A stretch of DNA of 64,000 bases from a virus. The stretch lies in the IMG/VR virus record IMGVR_UViG_3300035698_008781, positions 1-64,000 of that record. The stretch is one strand, 5' to 3'. How positions within the stretch are numbered: the first letter of the stretch is position 1; each line of letters starts with the position of its first letter. Below, piece after piece: positions 4,509 through 24,397 of this stretch. Position numbers and translations under genes: made by a program. Under the pieces are notes generated by a model. It saw nothing but the letters and a program-made list of their open reading frames with translations, did no database searches and was not told the DNA's origin.

Positions 4509-5246
4509 TTAGTTATTTCTATTATTTAATTGAACTCTATTTTGTAAATTATTTTCTTTATAATCTCGATGTGCTAGTTCTACAGCACGATCTAATATTT
4601 CTGGATGAATCTCTTTATCTAATTCAGAAGTTTGTTCTTGTACAATACCATTAATTGATAAATTCATTCCTGAAAATTCAGGGTCAGCACTTAAATCAGT
4701 TAATAAAATTGGACTAGGATATTTTAAGTATCTTAAATGATAAGTATCAATTACCCTATCACTTATAACCTCAACAACATTATTTAATGAAGAATTATAA
4801 TCTAATCTCCAAGCTAAATATTTATAAGGTCTTTTAAAAGGATTATTAGTTTTTTCATTAAACTCATCTAAAGTTACAGGTATAATATCTATTTCAATAC
4901 TACAATTGTTTTTAGTGTAAATACCTTTCTCGTATTTTATTAAAAATACATCTTTAGGTATTGTAAAAAACCTTGAGTTTAATTTATTAGTTATTCTATC
5001 AGTGTTAACAGCAAAAGATGTTGATTTAAAATCTTTAATTAATTCTTTTAAATCAGCTCTTCTTTTATCAGAACCATCAAAACCTTTTTGATACTTATTT
5101 GCTAATCCATTATATTCTTTAACTATTTCTAATTGTGCTTTAGTTAAATAAAATGACTTTTCATATTTATCTAATCCTGGAGCAGAATTTGAAGATATAT
5201 TATCATAAAGAATATCAAACTCTAAGTTAAATTCATTAGTAGTCAT
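4509..5246 (-). CDS. tail ring/adaptor protein (crAss gene 73/74-like)
   Basis: N-terminus MTTNEFNLEFDILYDNISSNSAPGLDKYEKSFYLTKAQ and C-terminal HPEILDRAVELA typical of crAss ring proteins. Confidence 0.7.
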   Translation of the reverse strand: MTTNEFNLEFDILYDNISSNSAPGLDKYEKSFYLTKAQLEIVKEYNGLANKYQKGFDGSDKRRADLKELIKDFKSTSFAVNTDRITNKLNSRFFTIPKDVFLIKYEKGIYTKNNCSIEIDIIPVTLDEFNEKTNNPFKRPYKYLAWRLDYNSSLNNVVEVISDRVIDTYHLRYLKYPSPILLTDLSADPEFSGMNLSINGIVQEQTSELDKEIHPEILDRAVELAHRDYKENNLQNRVQLNNRNN

Positions 5247-6172: not shown

Positions 6173-7693
6173 TTAATATTGGTATATAATACTTGGTATT
6201 AATGATGCAGTTCTAGAAGGGTCTTTAACCATCGCACCTTGCATACAGTAAGCTGTAATTGTAGCACTATCTTCCATTCTACCCATATTTCCTGAACCTC
6301 TTTCTCCTGTAAAAGGATTTCTGAAACCTGCTTGATATCCTCTAATTTCTTCGTTATCTTTAACCATTACTTTTTGAATATTAGGCTCTTCAGTAGATCC
6401 AATATATAAAATATCATATCTGTAAGATTCAGCAACACCACCATCTGGGTGCATAATTTTATTACGAACTTTGTCATCATACATTGGGTCAACCTCAACC
6501 ATTACTTTGATAGAATTCGCAAATTCATATTCTGTAAATTGGTAACCCGCTTTGAATGAGTTAGAATGTAATTGAGAACTTGTTTTCTGAACAACAGCTG
6601 GGTTGTTTTGAGAAAGTTCTTTCCAAGCTTGACCTTCACGATTAATAGATTGAGAGAATTGTTTAGCTCCTCTTTCACCAGTACGTAAAATAAATATTCT
6701 ATCTTTAAAGTCTAATTTACCTTCTGATAATTCATGTAACATATCTTCAAGAATTCTCAATGAGAACGTGTTATATGTAACAATGTTTGAAACTTCCATT
6801 TGTTCACGAATACCTGAACCTGATTCAATAGAGAATCCTGATTTACCTATATTTAAGAAGTTACCACTTTCATCTCTGTTTGATTTACCAAACATAATGT
6901 TAAATGCTTTTAAACGAGATAAATGTTGTTCAAATCTCCAATAGATTTCTTGCATCCAAGTGTTAGAAGTTCTAACTTTACCTGCATTATCTAATGATTC
7001 AATTTTTGAATAATAAACATCTGTTGCGTTTAATTTACAATTAATCATATTACCTGGAACAGTTGTTTCAACACGTAATTGTGACATTGTATTTTTCAAT
7101 GTGTAAGGAGAACTGAAGTTAATATCAGAACCTTTATTAGACATTGTTCTTTCAACAGGAGATCCTTCAATAGAGAATCTTTCTCCTACTAAAAGTTCAC
7201 TACCAGGAACACCCTGATAAGTTTCAGGTCCACCCCATACTTCAGCTGTATAAACATAAGGTCCATTTGGTCCTTCTGATCTTGGATCAGCTAAGATACG
7301 ATATTGATAAATATCTGGTTTTGAACCTGCAATTGTATGTACATCAGAAAAGTATTTTTCTGCGAACACCAATTCTATTTCGCTACGATTAGCTCCAACA
7401 TTTACACTAGCATCAGTTACTACAGCACCTTCAAATCTTGCTTCAGCAAGTGGAATATTTCTTTCGTGAGAACCTACCATTTTCCATGTAAAGTCACCCT
7501 CATCTTCTAAATATTTCACTGGAAACATATTAAGTACAGTATCTAAGTTTTTCATCCCTGCCTTAGCAAGTAACACCCCAGTAATCTGAGATGCAACCAT
7601 TGGTCTAGTAGCATAGATCTGACCTAAGTGATTTCTAGTTGTTAATCCTGACCAGTATTGTCCTTTGGTCATTACAAATTTACCTACACTCAT
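6173..7693 (-). CDS. major capsid protein
   Basis: 506 aa; WSGLTTRNHLG N-terminus, GSGIREQ and HPDGGVAESYR motifs of crAss-like MCPs; strong codon bias. Confidence 0.9.
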   Translation of the reverse strand: MSVGKFVMTKGQYWSGLTTRNHLGQIYATRPMVASQITGVLLAKAGMKNLDTVLNMFPVKYLEDEGDFTWKMVGSHERNIPLAEARFEGAVVTDASVNVGANRSEIELVFAEKYFSDVHTIAGSKPDIYQYRILADPRSEGPNGPYVYTAEVWGGPETYQGVPGSELLVGERFSIEGSPVERTMSNKGSDINFSSPYTLKNTMSQLRVETTVPGNMINCKLNATDVYYSKIESLDNAGKVRTSNTWMQEIYWRFEQHLSRLKAFNIMFGKSNRDESGNFLNIGKSGFSIESGSGIREQMEVSNIVTYNTFSLRILEDMLHELSEGKLDFKDRIFILRTGERGAKQFSQSINREGQAWKELSQNNPAVVQKTSSQLHSNSFKAGYQFTEYEFANSIKVMVEVDPMYDDKVRNKIMHPDGGVAESYRYDILYIGSTEEPNIQKVMVKDNEEIRGYQAGFRNPFTGERGSGNMGRMEDSATITAYCMQGAMVKDPSRTASLIPSIIYQY

Positions 7694-20645: not shown

Positions 20646-20761
20646 AATGAATCAAAATCATTCAAACAATCATAAATTACTTACAAATATACTACTTATT
20701 GTAGCATTAATATGTATAGTATTAACAATAATTAACTAATATTAACAATTAAATTACAAAA

Positions 20762-20820
20762 AGATGTTTAACAGCAAACAAAAACAATTATTTAGCAAAA
20801 ATAAAAAAACACAAATATCT
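20762..20820 (+). promoter_or_regulatory. ACAGCAA stem module over the start codon of the TROVE-like gene (putative autoregulatory site)
   Basis: AGATGTTT-A-ACAGCAA...AAATATCT: 8-bp stem (one GU) containing the ATG, in the same register as the array modules. Confidence 0.6.
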
Positions 20821-22428
20821 GGTAATGTATTTATAACAGAAGCTACTAAATCTACATCAGTAACAAGAAGTGAAAACGGTGCTAAAAAATATACTACAAC
20901 AGGTAGTGAATTTGTGGATCAATTTAGTAATTTAGGTAACTATAAAACACCTAGATCATTCGCAGATATATCAAGAGATATGTCGACATTATGGGCTATT
21001 AATCCTTTTATGACAGTTGCATTTACATTATTCATTAGAATAATCACTAGAACAACTATGTTATTTACAGGAAAAAAAACTGAAACTACTCAAAGAGGTG
21101 CTGGATTAAGGTATGAAGGTATAATGAGAATGATGTGGTTACATATATATCATAAAGATATATTTTGGAATAACATTCATCTATTTATATCAGCAGGTTC
21201 TTGGAAAGATATTATTATGATGTTATCATATGATTTACAATATAATGGTTGGGATAAACGACAATTAGATTGGAATCAATTTGGTAAATTAATATTATCT
21301 GGATTAGAAAATCCAAATCATTCTGAATTGATTAAAAAGTATTTACCTCAAATTAAATCAAATAATAAATGTAATACATTAGAAGCTCAAGCTGATAATA
21401 TAATTGCTAAATGGATTTGTTCATTATTATTTGGTGAAAAAGATAATGCAAATACTTATAAAAAATATAGAATGTTAAAATCTAAAGGTACAGCTCACCA
21501 ATGGCAACAATTAATATCACAAAGTAAACACAACCTTGTTGATTTTAATACAGTACATGGTAGAGCATTATCATTATTAGTATCTGGTAAGTATTTAACT
21601 AATCAAGGCTTAGAATCTAAATATCAAGAATTTATTGAATCTAAACCAATTGCTAAATATACAGGATATGTACATGAATTATTTGAAAAAATAACTCATT
21701 CAATGCCTAAATATCAAATAGATACTTTAAACTCACAATTTAAAGGTTTAGTAGAAACCGCTAAAACAAATGCTACTACAACTACAGGAATGATAGTTGT
21801 AAGAGATACTTCAGCTAGCATGAGTTCTTTAGCAATAGGTACTAAAACGTCTTGTGGTAATGTAGCAAAAGCATTAGCATTATTCTTTAATGAAATGTTA
21901 CCTGATGGTGTATTTAGTAATAATTGGATAGAATTTAATTCAACTGCTAAAATGTATCAATGGAATGGTTCAACACCTTATGAAAAATGGGTAAATGATA
22001 GATCAAGTTATATTGGGGATACAAACTTTCAATCTGTAATAGATTTATTATGTTCTATTAAGTCTAAAGATATTGATGAATCAGAATTTCCATCAGGTAT
22101 TATTTGCATTAGTGATATGGAATTCAATCCATCATCATTAAATCAAACAAATGTTTCAAGTGCTTTAGATAAATTAAGAGGGGTTGGTTTTTCAGACCAA
22201 TATATTAATAATTTTAAAATAGTACTATGGGATTTAGGAAGAAAAAATAAACAAACTAAGTTTGAAACATATGATAATGTTAAAAATACATTCTATTTTA
22301 GTGGATTTGATGGTTCAATAATGGCATTCTTAACAGGTGTTGAAGGTGCTGAAATGACTCCTCAAAATGCTCAAGAATTATTTAATGCTTCAATGGATCA
22401 AGAATTAATGCAAATGATTCAATTATGA
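20764..22428 (+). CDS. TROVE/Ro60-like RNA-binding protein with C-terminal vWA domain (DUF2828-like)
   Basis: 554 aa; SENGA..Y..TG...VDQF N-terminal motif, GSWKD, KYLP, MIDAS-like VVRDTSASM, ISDMEF, IVLWDL, FSGF. Confidence 0.8.
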   Translation: MFNSKQKQLFSKNKKTQISGNVFITEATKSTSVTRSENGAKKYTTTGSEFVDQFSNLGNYKTPRSFADISRDMSTLWAINPFMTVAFTLFIRIITRTTMLFTGKKTETTQRGAGLRYEGIMRMMWLHIYHKDIFWNNIHLFISAGSWKDIIMMLSYDLQYNGWDKRQLDWNQFGKLILSGLENPNHSELIKKYLPQIKSNNKCNTLEAQADNIIAKWICSLLFGEKDNANTYKKYRMLKSKGTAHQWQQLISQSKHNLVDFNTVHGRALSLLVSGKYLTNQGLESKYQEFIESKPIAKYTGYVHELFEKITHSMPKYQIDTLNSQFKGLVETAKTNATTTTGMIVVRDTSASMSSLAIGTKTSCGNVAKALALFFNEMLPDGVFSNNWIEFNSTAKMYQWNGSTPYEKWVNDRSSYIGDTNFQSVIDLLCSIKSKDIDESEFPSGIICISDMEFNPSSLNQTNVSSALDKLRGVGFSDQYINNFKIVLWDLGRKNKQTKFETYDNVKNTFYFSGFDGSIMAFLTGVEGAEMTPQNAQELFNASMDQELMQMIQL

Positions 22429-22432
22429 TATA

Positions 22433-22590
22433 AGGTGTAGAATCTGCAAATCATACACAAACAAATATGATAAGCAACAAGCACTACTAAGTATAATAAA
22501 AATAATAATAATTTTAAACTTTAACACTACACCTGTTAAATTCAAAGTTTAATTGTAAAAGTTATAATAAAAATACAATTAGTAGTGCTT
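22433..22590 (+). ncRNA. pseudoknot-like structured RNA preceding the array
   Basis: AGGTGTAG (22433-40) pairs with loop CTACACCT (22527-34); AAGCACTACTAA (22479-90) pairs with TTAGTAGTGCTT (22579-90). Confidence 0.55.
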
Positions 22591-22596
22591 TTAATA

Positions 22597-23031
22597 AGAA
22601 TACTAACAGCAATTTATAAAGATCAATTTTTTAACTTGAAACCTTATATGTATTCTGATAAAATGATTAATAGCACTCTTACGGTGAAATTGGTAAACAC
22701 AGGTGTCTAAAAAAATAATCATTTAATAAATAGTCTAACAGCAATTTTAATAGCTTTTCATGCCGTAAACAGTAGTTCGATTCTGCTAAGACATATAGAT
22801 ATGTCTTTCGTCTAGAGGCTAGGACAACGTAAAAAATAGACTATTGATAAGAAGTGTAACAGCAAATTTAAACTTTTTTAAAAATAAAAAAACAAATACA
22901 CTTCTAATAAGATTAGCAACAGCAAAATAACAAACATCAAATTTTTACTTTGACCAGTTATGCTAATCTGATAAAGTCACTAACAGCAACTCAAACAATT
23001 TTTATAGGAAAAAAGAAAAAAATAGTGACTT
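22597..23031 (+). ncRNA. array of six Y-RNA-like stem modules with an ACAGCAA motif
   Basis: modules 22597-656, 22661-724, 22729-845, 22850-905, 22910-969, 22974-23031; each has a different perfectly complementary closing stem; 4-nt RATA spacers. Confidence 0.85.
22753..22829 (+). tRNA. circularly permuted tRNA-Glu(UUC)-like sequence inside module 3
   Basis: GC-TTTTCAT-GCCGT, AAAC, T arm AGTAG-TTCGATT-CTGCT, acceptor AAGACAT-A-TAGAT-ATGTCTT, TC, D arm GTC-TAGAGGCTAG-GAC, A, ACG. Confidence 0.8.
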
Positions 23032-23064
23032 GAGTAAAATATTAACTAACTAATAATAATTATT

Positions 23065-23568: not shown

Positions 23569-23968
23569 GGGGCAGACTGGTTTTGACAGGTGATTAATAG
23601 CAATAATAATCAGTGAGAGAGATAACTCTAAACTAAGGTGAATTTAATTAAACGGAAAAGATAATGATCAAATCGTAGCAAATATGAATGTAGTATATAA
23701 CATCTTAAATGGTGGTACTGAAGTATCAAAAGATTTAAATACTATTATGGTAGAAGAAGATTTATTGATGGCAGCATAATATTGCCCAAAGCTAGTTGAG
23801 GTAATACTAGTAAATTTATTTAAGATTTCTTCATTAGATTAAATGAAGTGGTGGAAGTTAACCTACTGGTTGACCCTTTCTAACGTAAAGAGTTTAAAGA
23901 AACGTGAAACTGTATAAATTATTATTGTAAACATTGCATGGACGAGGGTTCGAGTCCCTCCTGCTCCA
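23569..23968 (+). ncRNA. ssrA: tmRNA
   Basis: GGGGCAG/CTGCTCC-A acceptor with G3-U, GGTTTTGAC D-loop analogue, GGACGAGGGTTCGAGTCCCTC T arm, tag reading frame 23654-23779 ending LLMAA*; CCA not encoded. Confidence 0.9.
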
Positions 23969-23985
23969 CAACTAATTCTTAAATT

Positions 23986-24195
23986 ATGAATATTATAGAA
24001 ATTAAAGTAGTAACTATTAGTGAAGATCCTGGTAATCCAGGTTTCATTAAAACACAAACTGTTGGTCGACTTGACAAAAGAGTCAATAGACAACAAGATT
24101 TTGTGAGATGGTATTTAGAAATTCATTCTCAACATGGTAATGTTAATTATGAAGTTTTAGATAAGCTAGAAATAGCTAAAGATAGGGTCTTATAG
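23986..24195 (+). CDS. hypothetical protein
   Basis: 69-aa ORF; its stop overlaps the 5' end of the tRNA. Confidence 0.45.
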   Translation: MNIIEIKVVTISEDPGNPGFIKTQTVGRLDKRVNRQQDFVRWYLEIHSQHGNVNYEVLDKLEIAKDRVL

Positions 24196-24257
24196 CTCAG
24201 GGGTAGAGCAGGGTGCTCATAACACTCAGGTCGTAGGTTCAAATCCTTCTAAGACCA
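24186..24257 (+). tRNA. tRNA with CAT anticodon (Ile2 or elongator Met; not initiator)
   Basis: GGTCTTA/TAAGACC acceptor, GCTC/GAGC D stem, GGGTG-CTCATAA-CACTC, GTAGG-TTCAAAT-CCTTC; G1-C72 paired, C4-G69. Confidence 0.85.
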
Positions 24258-24397
24258 CTAATTATTTGATTAATAATTAGTTAGTTAGTTGTAAATGTGA
24301 GTGAAAACTGCGATCATTCCGTGGATGTAGCTCACATTTATTTTAATCATTAATAAAAAACAAAAATTATGGAAGAATTAGTAAAACAAAAACTTAA

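What the first reader, a model, noticed from the sequence alone, without database searches (positions are those of the whole stretch)
22615..22960. Other modules carry tRNA-Lys(UUU) anticodon stem-loops and a tRNA-Leu-like 5' half
Seen: module 5 has TCAAA-[TTTTTAC]-TTTGA (22937-953), a 5-bp stem with a 7-nt loop U32 U33 UUU A37. Module 1 has TCAA-T-[TTTTTAA]-C-TTGA (22623-639), the same UUU loop. Module 2 reads ACTCTTA-CG-GTG-AAATTGGTAAA-CAC-A-GGTGT-CT (22675-708), a class-II (Leu-like) 5' half ending at C32-U33, where anticodon nucleases cut. Modules 4 and 6 have only weak AT-rich loops (possibly UAA and UAG-GA). Inference: the cargo set (Lys, Glu, Leu) mirrors common tRNA targets of anti-phage nucleases. 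AT-richness makes the short mimics less certain than module 3.
Basis: partly seen in the sequence, partly recalled or inferred. Interest (0 to 1): 0.7.

Follow-up and report, generated by a model that had tools for sequence, protein, structure and literature searches.

The report
Anticodon-arm mimics on phage Ro60-partner RNAs
Downstream of a phage gene for a Ro60-shaped RNA-binding protein lie six small RNA modules that share one "handle"; one clearly displays a copy of the lysine-tRNA anticodon hairpin and another holds the front part of a leucine tRNA, so this looks like an undescribed Y-RNA-like particle that presents tRNA parts, possibly as bait in the phage-host fight over tRNAs.

Summary
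All three sequence features are at the stated coordinates. Within this AT-rich window they are not beyond chance: shuffles give module 5's hairpin 2% of the time, and module 1's is not the best fold.

Related phages decide the matter. The 554-aa upstream gene folds like Ro60 (TROVE ring plus vWA). In 80 phage loci that encode it, 184 handle modules (covarying stem plus ACAGCAA) lie on the gene strand and 6 on the other.

Of 63 non-redundant short cargos, 22 hold a hairpin with a 7-nt U33/R37 loop, against 5.3±2.0 in shuffles. C32-U33-NNN-A37-A38 loops are 38-fold enriched over the neighbouring gene. They match the loops of real Lys, Thr, Cys, Tyr, Asn, Ile, Met and Arg tRNAs from these phages.

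- **Module 5** is a conserved, covarying Lys-type arm.
- **Module 1** is a diverged, weaker one.
- **Module 2** matches tRNA-Leu(UAA) best, but is probably a truncated permuted tRNA module.
- **Modules 4 and 6** are not anticodon mimics.

The decoy role is untested. The cargo set is broad and not enriched for known nuclease targets.

This scan has noted the same system on other DNA in at least 60 genomes. I found no publication on it.

The parts
20764..22428 (+). Gene for a Ro60-like protein (DUF2828/DUF7788; TROVE-like ring plus vWA domain with a DxSxS MIDAS motif at D348/S350/S352)
   Evidence: Pfam DUF7788, E 1.4e-10. phrog_850 'RNA-binding protein', E 7.5e-29. Invariant D348/S350/S352. AlphaFold2 model with pLDDT 82.9. 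The top 13 Foldseek PDB hits are all Ro60/TROVE.
22429..22593 (+). Leader with a handle-like start (ATAAGGTGTAGA-ATCTGCAA) and a 12-bp helix, 22479-22490 with 22579-22590
   Evidence: Inverted repeat I1. The same leader occurs in L002, L003 and L126, with compensatory changes in the 12-bp helix when read by eye. Not analysed further.
22594..22659 (+). Module 1: handle (AAGAATAC/GTATTCTG stem plus ACAGCAA) with cargo hairpin TCAA-T-TTTTTAA-C-TTGA at 22623-22639
   Evidence: Sequence. Homologous to the TTCAAA-N7-TTTGAA class (A3). The L003 orthologue differs by one base, in the middle of the 'anticodon'. The claimed hairpin is not in the best RNAfold structure. Rfam RF01414 gives 28 bits.
22658..22727 (+). 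Module 2: intact 12-bp handle stem, degenerate motif ATAGCAC, and cargo equal to the 5' part of a tRNA-Leu(UAA)-like sequence (22675-22708)
   Evidence: Inverted repeat I14. The five best of 250 phage tRNAs are all Leu(UAA), the best at 26 of 31 identical. BLAST E 5e-4, 5' half only.
22726..22848 (+). Module 3: handle plus a circularly permuted tRNA-Glu-like body (loop TTTTCAT, T arm, closed acceptor hairpin, D arm). Given here as context; it is the subject of another finding.
   Evidence: YrlA-type order, T arm before D arm.
22847..22908 (+). Module 4: handle plus an A/U-run cargo (U7/A7 hairpin); no anticodon-like loop
22907..22972 (+). Module 5: handle, outer helix (UAAC/GUUA) and an anticodon-arm mimic TCAAA-TTTTTAC-TTTGA at 22937-22953 (U32 U33 UUU A37 C38, Lys type)
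   Evidence: The best fold contains both helices, z -2.8. Orthologues in L003, L125, L140, L126, L129, L162 and L172 carry CTTTTAA, CTCTTAA or TTTTTAG loops on different stems. Covariation in A2.
22971..23034 (+). Module 6: handle plus A/U-rich cargo with no stable internal structure
   Evidence: Rfam RF01414 gives 29.9 bits.
23569..23969 (+). tmRNA gene (context: the array lies in the phage's tRNA/tmRNA region)
   Evidence: ARAGORN. Rfam RF00023, 52.8 bits.
24186..24258 (+). tRNA-Met(CAU), the only tRNA gene in the 78.8-kb record

Best explanation
The six modules are small RNAs of a Y-RNA-like family. Each has a constant handle: a covarying terminal helix with a conserved A.G mismatch, followed by single-stranded ACAGCAA. 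The Ro60-like protein encoded just upstream most likely grips this handle. Each module also has a variable cargo that is displayed.

Across the family the cargo consists of tRNA parts.
- **Module 5** displays a tRNA-Lys-type anticodon arm.
- **Module 1** displays a diverged, weaker version of such an arm.
- **Module 2** carries the 5' part of a tRNA-Leu(UAA) (acceptor strand, D arm, 5' anticodon-stem strand). It is most likely a permuted tRNA-like module that lost its other half.
- **Modules 4 and 6** carry A/U-rich cargo that does not mimic anticodon loops.

Proposed mechanism: the particle presents anticodon arms to proteins that read anticodon loops. It would act as bait or tether, most plausibly for host tRNA-cutting defence nucleases.

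The identity part (RNA family, anticodon-arm cargo) is supported by computation, and I rate it about 0.85. Protein-handle binding and the bait role are inferences, which I rate about 0.35.
For: - **Protein.** Its fold matches Ro60/TROVE plus vWA and it has a MIDAS motif.
- **Linkage.** In 80 protein-anchored phage loci, 184 modules lie on the gene strand and 6 on the other. 60 loci have at least one module, and 134 modules lie downstream of the gene.
- **Handle.** 8 of 11 pairs change on both sides, and ACAGCAA is invariant.
- **Anticodon geometry.** 22 of 63 cargos against 5.3±2.0 in shuffles. CU-NNN-AA loops have an odds ratio of 38 over gene-body hairpins.
- **Loop identity.** The loops equal those of real tRNAs in the same loci: CTTTTAA, CTCTTAA, CTTGTAA, TTTGTAA, CTGCAAA, CTGTAAA, CTGTTAA, CTGATAA, CTCATAA, CTTCTAA and TTTTGGT.
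- **Anticodon-like stem.** All 5 pairs covary while U33 and U36 stay fixed and A37 nearly so.
- **Module 2.** Its top five tRNA matches are all Leu(UAA).
- **Long cargos.** 21 of 21 with both tRNA halves are in permuted, YrlA-like order. They give partial YrlA hits over model positions 23-87.
- **Cultured phage.** Leptolyngbya phage Lbo-JY46 has an unannotated five-module array after its homologue, with two CTTTTAA arms and one CTGCAAA arm.
- **Published nuclease targets.** PARIS AriB cuts Lys(UUU), Thr(UGU) and Asn(GUU) (PMC12409363). P2 OLD favours Thr(UGU) and tRNAs with A37 (PMC12445682). Both sets fit the U36-A37 class to which module 5 belongs.
Against: - Inside this window alone the hairpins are not beyond chance.
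- Module 1's arm is not the preferred fold.
- Module 5's loop is UUUUUAC, which differs from the canonical CUUUUAA at positions 32 and 38.
- Module 2's motif is degenerate and it has no counterpart elsewhere.
- Lys, Thr and Asn are not enriched over real phage tRNA genes (p 0.45). The displayed identities span at least 12 amino acids, so a single nuclease target is unlikely.
- Protein-handle binding, transcription and processing are all unshown.
- Non-Watson-Crick positions in the handle show no excess of G.U over A.C, so the helix gives no RNA-specific signal.
Confidence: 0.6

Rival explanations
1. Repair or quality-control scaffold. As proposed for bacterial Rsr-YrlA-RtcB, the Ro60-like ring handles damaged or misfolded tRNAs. 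The tRNA-part cargos would then recruit or gate tRNA-processing, repair or modification enzymes rather than act as decoys.
For: The protein has a Ro60 fold. The long cargos are YrlA-like. The arrays sit among tRNA and tmRNA genes: 43 of 80 loci have same-strand tRNA genes. The two main arm classes keep U36-A37-A38 or G36-G37, which from general knowledge are the determinants of t6A37 and m1G37 modification.
Against: RtcB is absent from 40 of 40 phage records, including 17 that are at least 90% complete, and from this record. RNA-ligase genes occur in only about half of the complete records and are not linked to the locus. A bare anticodon hairpin is a poor substrate mimic for end-joining enzymes.
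Confidence: 0.2
2. Evolutionary debris. The cargos are fragments of tRNA genes caught between handle repeats by recombination in the phage tRNA cluster, and the anticodon loops themselves are not under selection. The window's AT-rich hairpins (modules 1, 4 and 6, and perhaps 5) would then be chance.
For: Within the window the hairpins are compatible with chance. Module 2 looks like a truncated module with a degenerate motif. Cargo types are heterogeneous, including T arm only and D arm only.
Against: The arm stems covary while U33, U36 and A37 stay fixed across phages whose proteins are only 43-69% identical to this window's. The arms are cleanly excised 4-6 bp plus 7 nt units on AU-rich stems unlike those of real tRNAs. 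Enrichment is strong against both shuffles and natural sequence.
Confidence: 0.1
3. Manipulation of translation. The displayed anticodon arms would bind aminoacyl-tRNA synthetase anticodon-binding domains, or the ribosomal decoding site, to retune or shut off host translation.
For: The identities seen (Lys, Gln, Thr, Cys, Tyr, Asn, Ile, Met, Arg, Pro) are mostly tRNAs whose synthetases read the anticodon, from general knowledge. Gly, Ala, Val and Asp are depleted (1 of 32 against 54 of 238, p 0.009).
Against: There is no direct evidence. The depletion rests on small numbers and a noisy caller. The role of a Ro60-like ring is not explained.
Confidence: 0.1

Closest known systems
Ro60 (Rsr) with YrlA-type Y RNAs of bacteria and phages (Rfam RF02553; Chen et al. 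2014, PMC4201824)
   Same: A ring-shaped TROVE plus vWA protein is encoded next to small RNAs whose 5' and 3' ends pair in a stem. At least one RNA per locus carries a tRNA-like domain in the order T arm, closed acceptor hairpin, D arm. Long cargos of related arrays give partial YrlA hits.
   Different: - The protein belongs to DUF2828/DUF7788 and gives no Pfam TROVE hit.
- The stem-plus-ACAGCAA handle is not the Y-RNA Ro-binding helix, and no Y_RNA or YrlA match reaches threshold.
- The arrays hold up to about eight modules rather than one or two RNAs.
- Many modules show only an anticodon arm, a part that the sources read here do not describe for YrlA.
- No RtcB is linked.
Thermus phage phiLo Ro60 with Yrl1 and Yrl2 (PMC12135203; PDB 9KOP, 9L5Y)
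   Same: A phage-encoded Ro60 homologue with adjacent partner RNAs. It gives the best structural matches to this protein (E 4e-7 to 9e-6, TM 0.5-0.6).
   Different: It has two upstream Y-like RNAs identified through a CGAA motif. That paper does not mention tRNA-like features, an ACAGCAA handle or anticodon arms. Sequence identity to the model is 14-15%.
Class I RNAs of dictyostelid social amoebae (Rfam RF01414; Kjellin et al. 2021, PMC7919456)
   Same: RNAs of about 60 nt with a 6-bp terminal stem that starts with G, an adjacent conserved motif (CCUUACAGCAA there, ACUAACAGCAA here: 9 of 11 identical), a variable A/U-rich remainder and CUG after the 3' stem strand. Thirteen phage matches, twelve in arrays and one over a Ro60-like gene start, score 19-34 bits.
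   Different: All scores are below the gathering score of 41.5. Class I RNAs are eukaryotic, each has its own DUSE promoter, their known binder is the RRM protein Rnp1A, and no anticodon-arm cargo is described. Whether dictyostelids have a DUF2828 protein could not be tested here.
Phage tRNA genes that resist or replace targets of tRNA-cutting defences, such as T5 tRNA-Lys/Thr/Asn against PARIS AriB (PMC12409363) and phage tRNA-Thr against P2 OLD (PMC12445682)
   Same: A phage-encoded RNA answer centred on the anticodon arm. The Lys and Thr identities overlap with the module-5 class (U36-A37).
   Different: Those are complete, functional tRNAs that replace cleaved host tRNAs. The modules here lack acceptor ends, cannot be charged, and are tied to a Ro60-like protein. 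In the P2 OLD study the rescue tRNAs did not act by competitive protection.

Membership tests
tRNA anticodon stem-loop geometry (as a mimic): module 5 | 5-bp stem closing a 7-nt loop with pyrimidine 32, U33 and purine 37 | tested here: met
   TCAAA-TTTTTAC-TTTGA at 22937-22953. It is part of the best RNAfold structure.
tRNA anticodon stem-loop geometry (as a mimic): module 5 | Loop conserved and stem covarying in orthologous modules | tested here: met
   In A2, 5 of 5 stem pairs change on both sides and 89% of cells are paired. U33 and U36 are invariant and A37 nearly so.
tRNA anticodon stem-loop geometry (as a mimic): module 5 | Loop identical to that of a genuine isoacceptor | tested here: inconclusive
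   The window has TTTTTAC, whereas real Lys(UUU) loops are CTTTTAA (8), CGTTTAA (2) and CTTTTAT (1). Orthologues in L003, L125, L126, L162 and L172 have exactly CTTTTAA.
tRNA anticodon stem-loop geometry (as a mimic): module 1 | Contiguous stem of at least 4-5 bp closing a 7-nt loop with U33 and R37 | tested here: inconclusive
   A 4-bp stem plus a U.C mismatch. It is absent from the best fold and fails the contiguous-stem test. It aligns with the conserved TTCAAA-N7-TTTGAA class.
tRNA anticodon stem-loop geometry (as a mimic): modules 4 and 6 | Hairpin with a 7-nt U33/R37 loop | tested here: not met
   Module 4 is a U7/A7 hairpin with a 4-nt loop. Module 6 has no internal structure.
tRNA-Leu 5' half: module 2 | Sequence similarity to the acceptor 5' strand, class II D arm and 5' anticodon-stem strand of tRNA-Leu | tested here: met
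   The top five of 250 phage tRNAs are all Leu(UAA), the best at 26 of 31 identical. BLAST E 5e-4.
tRNA-Leu 5' half: module 2 | A recurrent, selected module type (intact handle motif, counterparts in other arrays) | tested here: not met
   The motif is ATAGCAC, two mismatches from the otherwise near-invariant ACAGCAA. The other six modules with only a 5'-half match have cargos of 89 nt or more, and at least three of them also carry a T arm by pattern. The L003 orthologue with the same stem carries a full permuted tRNA-like body.
Ro60 / Y RNA ribonucleoprotein | Protein with a TROVE ring plus a vWA (MIDAS) domain | tested here: met
   Met by fold: the top 13 Foldseek hits are Ro60/TROVE, and DxSxS is invariant. 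By sequence only DUF7788/DUF2828 is found, with no Pfam TROVE hit.
Ro60 / Y RNA ribonucleoprotein | Partner RNA genes next to the protein gene, with 5' and 3' ends paired in a stem | tested here: met
   184 against 6 modules by strand in 80 loci. Handle covariation.
Ro60 / Y RNA ribonucleoprotein | Match to the Y_RNA or YrlA covariance models at the curated threshold | tested here: not met
   Nothing at gathering score. Only partial YrlA hits of 24-32.5 bits against a gathering score of 69, over the tRNA-like domain.
Ro60 / Y RNA ribonucleoprotein | Physical binding of the RNA by the protein | not testable with these tools
   Needs EMSA, RIP or a structure.
Dictyostelium Class I RNA (RF01414) | Score at or above the Rfam gathering threshold of 41.5 bits | tested here: not met
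   The best scores are 29.9 bits in the window and 34.1 bits in relatives.
Dictyostelium Class I RNA (RF01414) | Terminal 6-bp stem plus an adjacent 11-nt motif and a variable remainder | tested here: met
   cmscan alignments span model positions 1-56. The motif is 9 of 11 identical (description in PMC7919456).
Decoy for anticodon nucleases | Binding to, or inhibition of, a tRNA-targeting nuclease | not testable with these tools
   There is only indirect overlap with published AriB and OLD targets. No enrichment of Lys, Thr and Asn.

The most novel reading that the evidence does not exclude
Phages assemble a Ro60-like particle whose exchangeable RNA subunits display bare anticodon arms and sealed tRNA bodies as a programmable bait library. 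Each arm would titrate or tether a host protein that reads that anticodon loop, above all tRNA-cutting defence nucleases. Swapping three loop letters, as between module 1 here (UUU) and its L003 orthologue (UGU), would retarget the bait. The same handle logic may also explain the orphan Class I RNAs of Dictyostelium.
Probability: 0.3. Interest if true: 0.88.

Novelty: new variant of a known kind. Interest (0 to 1): 0.68.

Why it matters
tRNA cleavage is now recognised as a major bacterial defence (PARIS, OLD, PrrC and others). The known phage answers are replacement tRNAs and repair enzymes. A protein-borne display of anticodon arms would be a third kind of answer.

It would also give the uncharacterised DUF2828 family a function and partner RNAs. 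That family had more than 1,800 homologues in one search. The same result would extend Y-RNA biology beyond whole-tRNA mimicry.

The proposal is directly testable. A cultured cyanophage, Leptolyngbya phage Lbo-JY46, carries the gene and an unannotated five-module array.

Tried and rejected
- **Metagenome scan** gave only three distant loci.
- **Expression:** no RNA holder was listed for the stretch, so expression and processing could not be examined.
- **Sequence-only PDB search** found nothing.
- **Rfam at gathering score** finds only tRNA and tmRNA. A focused scan of modules 2-3 gave no tRNA hit.
- **G.U against A.C** at non-Watson-Crick handle positions: 27 against 30, which is uninformative.
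- **Enrichment of Lys, Thr and Asn** among mimics over real phage tRNAs: not significant.
- **RtcB:** absent from this record and from 40 related records.
- **RNA ligases:** families PF09414 and PF09511 are present in some large relatives but unlinked.
- **Literature:** a search for DUF2828 returned only incidental mentions. A first search including 'TROVE' was swamped by the everyday word.
- **Protein atlas** returned only viral clusters, so whether dictyostelids encode a DUF2828 protein could not be tested.
- **Pattern scan** for CTGATAA-N8-ACAGCAA mostly returned single chance hits, and my first loose detector was too noisy.
- **Permuted functional tRNAs:** considered and rejected for modules 1, 4, 5 and 6, because they lack acceptor and T arms.
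Full report
**What is at the coordinates.** The region 22594-23034 is a head-to-tail run of six modules. Each starts with ATAAR plus about 7 variable bases, then ACAGCAA, then a variable cargo. It ends with the complement of the variable bases plus YTRAT. The third position of the helix is a conserved A.G or A.A mismatch; it is A.G in 154 of 161 distinct handles.

- TCAAA-TTTTTAC-TTTGA at 22937-22953 (module 5);
- TCAA-T-TTTTTAA-C-TTGA at 22623-22639 (module 1);
- the tRNA-like string at 22675-22708 (module 2).

ARAGORN and Rfam at curated thresholds see only the tmRNA (23569-23969) and tRNA-Met (24186-24258) further downstream. The whole 78.8-kb phage record holds no other tRNA. Head, portal, terminase and polymerase genes identify it as a tailed phage.

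**Chance within the window.** The genome is about 26% G+C. Hairpins with at least 5 bp and a Y32-U33-R37 7-nt loop occur about 1.4 times per kb per strand. Shuffles of module 5's own cargo give one in 2% of trials.

RNAfold puts module 5's hairpin and a short outer helix in the best fold (z -2.8). It folds module 1 differently, gives module 4 a U7/A7 hairpin, and gives module 6 no internal structure. On this window alone only module 5 is suggestive.

**The protein next door.** The 554-aa ORF at 20764-22428 matches Pfam DUF7788, and its relatives also match DUF2828. It also matches phrog_850 "RNA-binding protein" and has an invariant DxSxS motif. An AlphaFold2 model (pLDDT 82.9) finds Ro60/TROVE structures as its 13 best PDB matches. 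These include the Thermus phage phiLo Ro60, Xenopus Ro60 and Deinococcus Rsr. It is therefore a Ro60-shaped protein that sequence models do not file under TROVE.

**Linkage of modules and gene.** I fetched 80 viral loci encoding relatives that are 43-69% identical. A strict detector required the ATAA arm, ACAGCAA with at most one mismatch, a complementary arm and a TGAT or TAAT tail.
- It finds 184 modules on the gene strand and 6 on the other.
- 60 loci have at least one module and 43 have at least two.
- 134 modules lie downstream of the gene.

Same-strand tRNA genes lie within 3.5 kb in 43 of the 80 loci. In an alignment of 13 modules the handle helix has 8 of 11 pairs changed on both sides, and ACAGCAA is invariant.

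I used 63 non-redundant short cargos (20-55 nt, under 80% alike).
- 22 hold a hairpin of at least 4 bp with a 7-nt loop carrying U33 and R37. Five hundred dinucleotide shuffles give 5.3±2.0, maximum 11.
- With Y32 also required, the count is 16 against 2.9±1.6.
- Against natural sequence, C32-U33-NNN-A37-A38 loops are 12 of 53 cargo hairpins and 25 of 3268 hairpins in the neighbouring gene body (odds ratio 38, p 1e-13).

The loops are letter-for-letter those of genuine tRNAs found by ARAGORN in the same loci:
- CTTTTAA and CTCTTAA (Lys);
- CTTGTAA and TTTGTAA (Thr);
- CTGCAAA (Cys);
- CTGTAAA (Tyr);
- CTGTTAA (Asn);
- CTGATAA (Ile);
- CTCATAA (Met);
- CTTCTAA (Arg);
- TTTTGGT (Gln).

The mimic stems are AU-rich and differ from those of the real tRNAs. 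The refutation condition was "no anticodon-loop geometry beyond chance", and it is not met.

**Module 5.** Its orthologues keep a Lys-type loop on changing stems:

| Locus | Arm |
|---|---|
| L003, L125 | CAAA-CTTTTAA-TTTG |
| L126 | ACAAA-CTTTTAA-TTTGT |
| L162 | TTTGA-CTTTTAA-TCAAA |
| L172 | TTCTA-CTTTTAA-TGGAA |
| L129 | TCAAA-CTCTTAA-TTTGA |
| L140 | TCAAA-TTTTTAG-CTTGA |

In alignment A2 all five arm pairs change on both sides and 89% of cells are paired. Outside the handle the only invariant positions are U33 and U36, and A37 is nearly invariant. Module 5 is therefore a real member of a selected anticodon-arm class. Its own loop, UUUUUAC, departs from the canonical CUUUUAA at positions 32 and 38.

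**Module 1.** It aligns with a second class, TTCAAA-N7-TTTGAA, whose loops keep G36-G37-U38 (TTTTGGT, TTTAGGT, TTTGGGT). One stem pair in that class is flipped, C-G to G-C, in L133.

In the window and in L003 the closing pair has become U.C and the GG is lost. This leaves TTTTTAA here and TTTGTAA in L003. That single difference lies in the middle of the "anticodon" in an otherwise near-identical cargo. The change also fits the competing hairpin that RNAfold prefers. I rate module 1 as a plausible but weak arm.

**Module 2.** Among 250 distinct phage tRNAs its five best matches are all tRNA-Leu(UAA). The best has 26 of 31 identities through the D arm and onward; BLAST gives E 5e-4. The similarity is real.

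Four observations point to a permuted tRNA-like module that lost its first half, rather than a designed mimic of a cleavage product. I put this at about 60:40.
- Its end, GGTGTC-TAAAAAAA-arm, parallels module 3's ACG-TAAAAAA-arm, where the short strand pairs with a partner at the start of the cargo. In module 2 that partner, the loop, the T arm and the acceptor 3' strand are all missing.
- The handle motif is ATAGCAC.
- The L003 module with the same stem carries a full permuted tRNA-like body.
- The other six modules with only a 5'-half match have cargos of 89 nt or more, and at least three of them also carry a T arm by pattern.

**Modules 4 and 6.** Neither shows anticodon geometry.

**The wider cargo repertoire.** Of 67 non-redundant long cargos, 40 have a canonical T arm. 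All 21 that match both halves of real tRNAs have the 3' half first. This is the YrlA arrangement (PMC4201824), and three give partial YrlA hits over the tRNA-like domain.

Short modules repeatedly hit the Dictyostelium Class I RNA model at 19-34 bits, below its threshold of 41.5. The match runs through the terminal stem, a motif 9 of 11 identical, and the CUG tail.

**Mechanism.** Three things are shown by computation: a Ro60-fold protein, strand-specific and position-specific linkage to handle RNAs, and selected anticodon-arm and tRNA-like cargo. Two things are inferred: that the protein binds the handle as Ro60 binds the Y-RNA stem, and that the cargo is presented to other proteins.

The bait reading fits published targets. 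PARIS AriB cuts Lys(UUU), Thr(UGU) and Asn(GUU) (PMC12409363). P2 OLD favours Thr(UGU) and tRNAs with A37 (PMC12445682).

Against a simple version of that reading:
- The displayed set spans at least 12 amino-acid identities.
- Lys, Thr and Asn are not enriched over the real tRNA genes of these phages (p 0.45).
- Gly, Ala, Val and Asp are depleted (p 0.009).

A repair-scaffold reading loses weight because RtcB is absent from 40 of 40 related records, and RNA ligases are unlinked and present in only about half.

**Novelty.** Phage Ro60 with one or two Y-like RNAs is published (PMC4201824, PMC12135203). I found nothing on the function of DUF2828, on the ACAGCAA handle, or on anticodon-arm display.

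Earlier notes of this scan describe the same system on other DNA in at least 60 genomes, including the estimate that about a third of copies show an anticodon arm. My counts, made independently, agree. GenBank phage Lbo-JY46 carries an unannotated five-module array with two Lys arms and one Cys arm, so it offers an experimental model.

Noticed in passing
window 20760-20820; also L003:4000-4058 and the gene start of 8 of 80 loci: A handle-like hairpin with ACAGCAA spans the start codon of the Ro60-like gene (ATG TTT AAC AGC AAA = MFNSK). In L003 it scores 27.3 bits on RF01414, and the strict detector finds it at 8 gene starts. This may be autoregulation by the protein, but the peptide MFNSKQ is itself conserved, so coding constraint is a confounder.
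   Followed up: partly
L126:6085-6125, L129:5497-5535, L130:5705-5745: A recurrent cargo motif, GAGG(C/T)ACTTGGTGTGGAATATC, follows a T arm in modules of three different phages. It matches no tRNA part that I recognise.
   Followed up: no
window 22598-22657, 22851-22906, 22975-23032; nine array modules and one gene-start hairpin in L003, L126, L133, L158, L203: Thirteen phage matches, twelve in arrays and one over a Ro60-like gene start, hit the Dictyostelium Class I RNA model (RF01414) at 19-34 bits, below the gathering score of 41.5. The match covers the terminal stem, a motif 9 of 11 identical and the CUG tail. Class I RNAs are reported as unique to dictyostelids and of unknown mechanism (PMC7919456).
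   Followed up: partly
L208 (PP438436.1, Leptolyngbya phage Lbo-JY46), locus 4655-5015: This cultured cyanophage has five handle modules in a 394-nt unannotated gap right after its DUF2828 homologue, which is annotated as a hypothetical protein. They include TTCTA-CTTTTAA-TGGAA, GAAAT-CTTTTAA-ATTTC and ACTTT-CTGCAAA-AAAGT plus a T arm.
   Followed up: partly
window 22699-22706 and 22529-22536: Module 2's ACAGGTGT is the exact complement of ACACCTGT in the leader, which itself pairs with the leader's GGTGTAG arm. This could be an alternative long-range pairing or a coincidence.
   Followed up: no
alignment A3 (L004, L130, L136, L145, L147, L135, L133, L144): A second anticodon-arm class keeps G36-G37-U38 while positions 34-35 vary (UUG, UAG, UGG, AUG). 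The module-5 class keeps U36-A37. From general knowledge these are the determinants of m1G37 and t6A37 modification.
   Followed up: partly
L159:6528-6588: An Rfam tRNA hit (52.6 bits, model positions 6-65) lies inside a handle module at 6486-6605. Here a non-permuted tRNA body seems to have its acceptor ends replaced by the handle.
   Followed up: no
window 23569-23969: The phage tmRNA has an ARAGORN-predicted 22-residue tag, GGTEVSKDLNTIMVEEDLLMAA. tmRNA genes also follow the arrays in L126 and L004.
   Followed up: no
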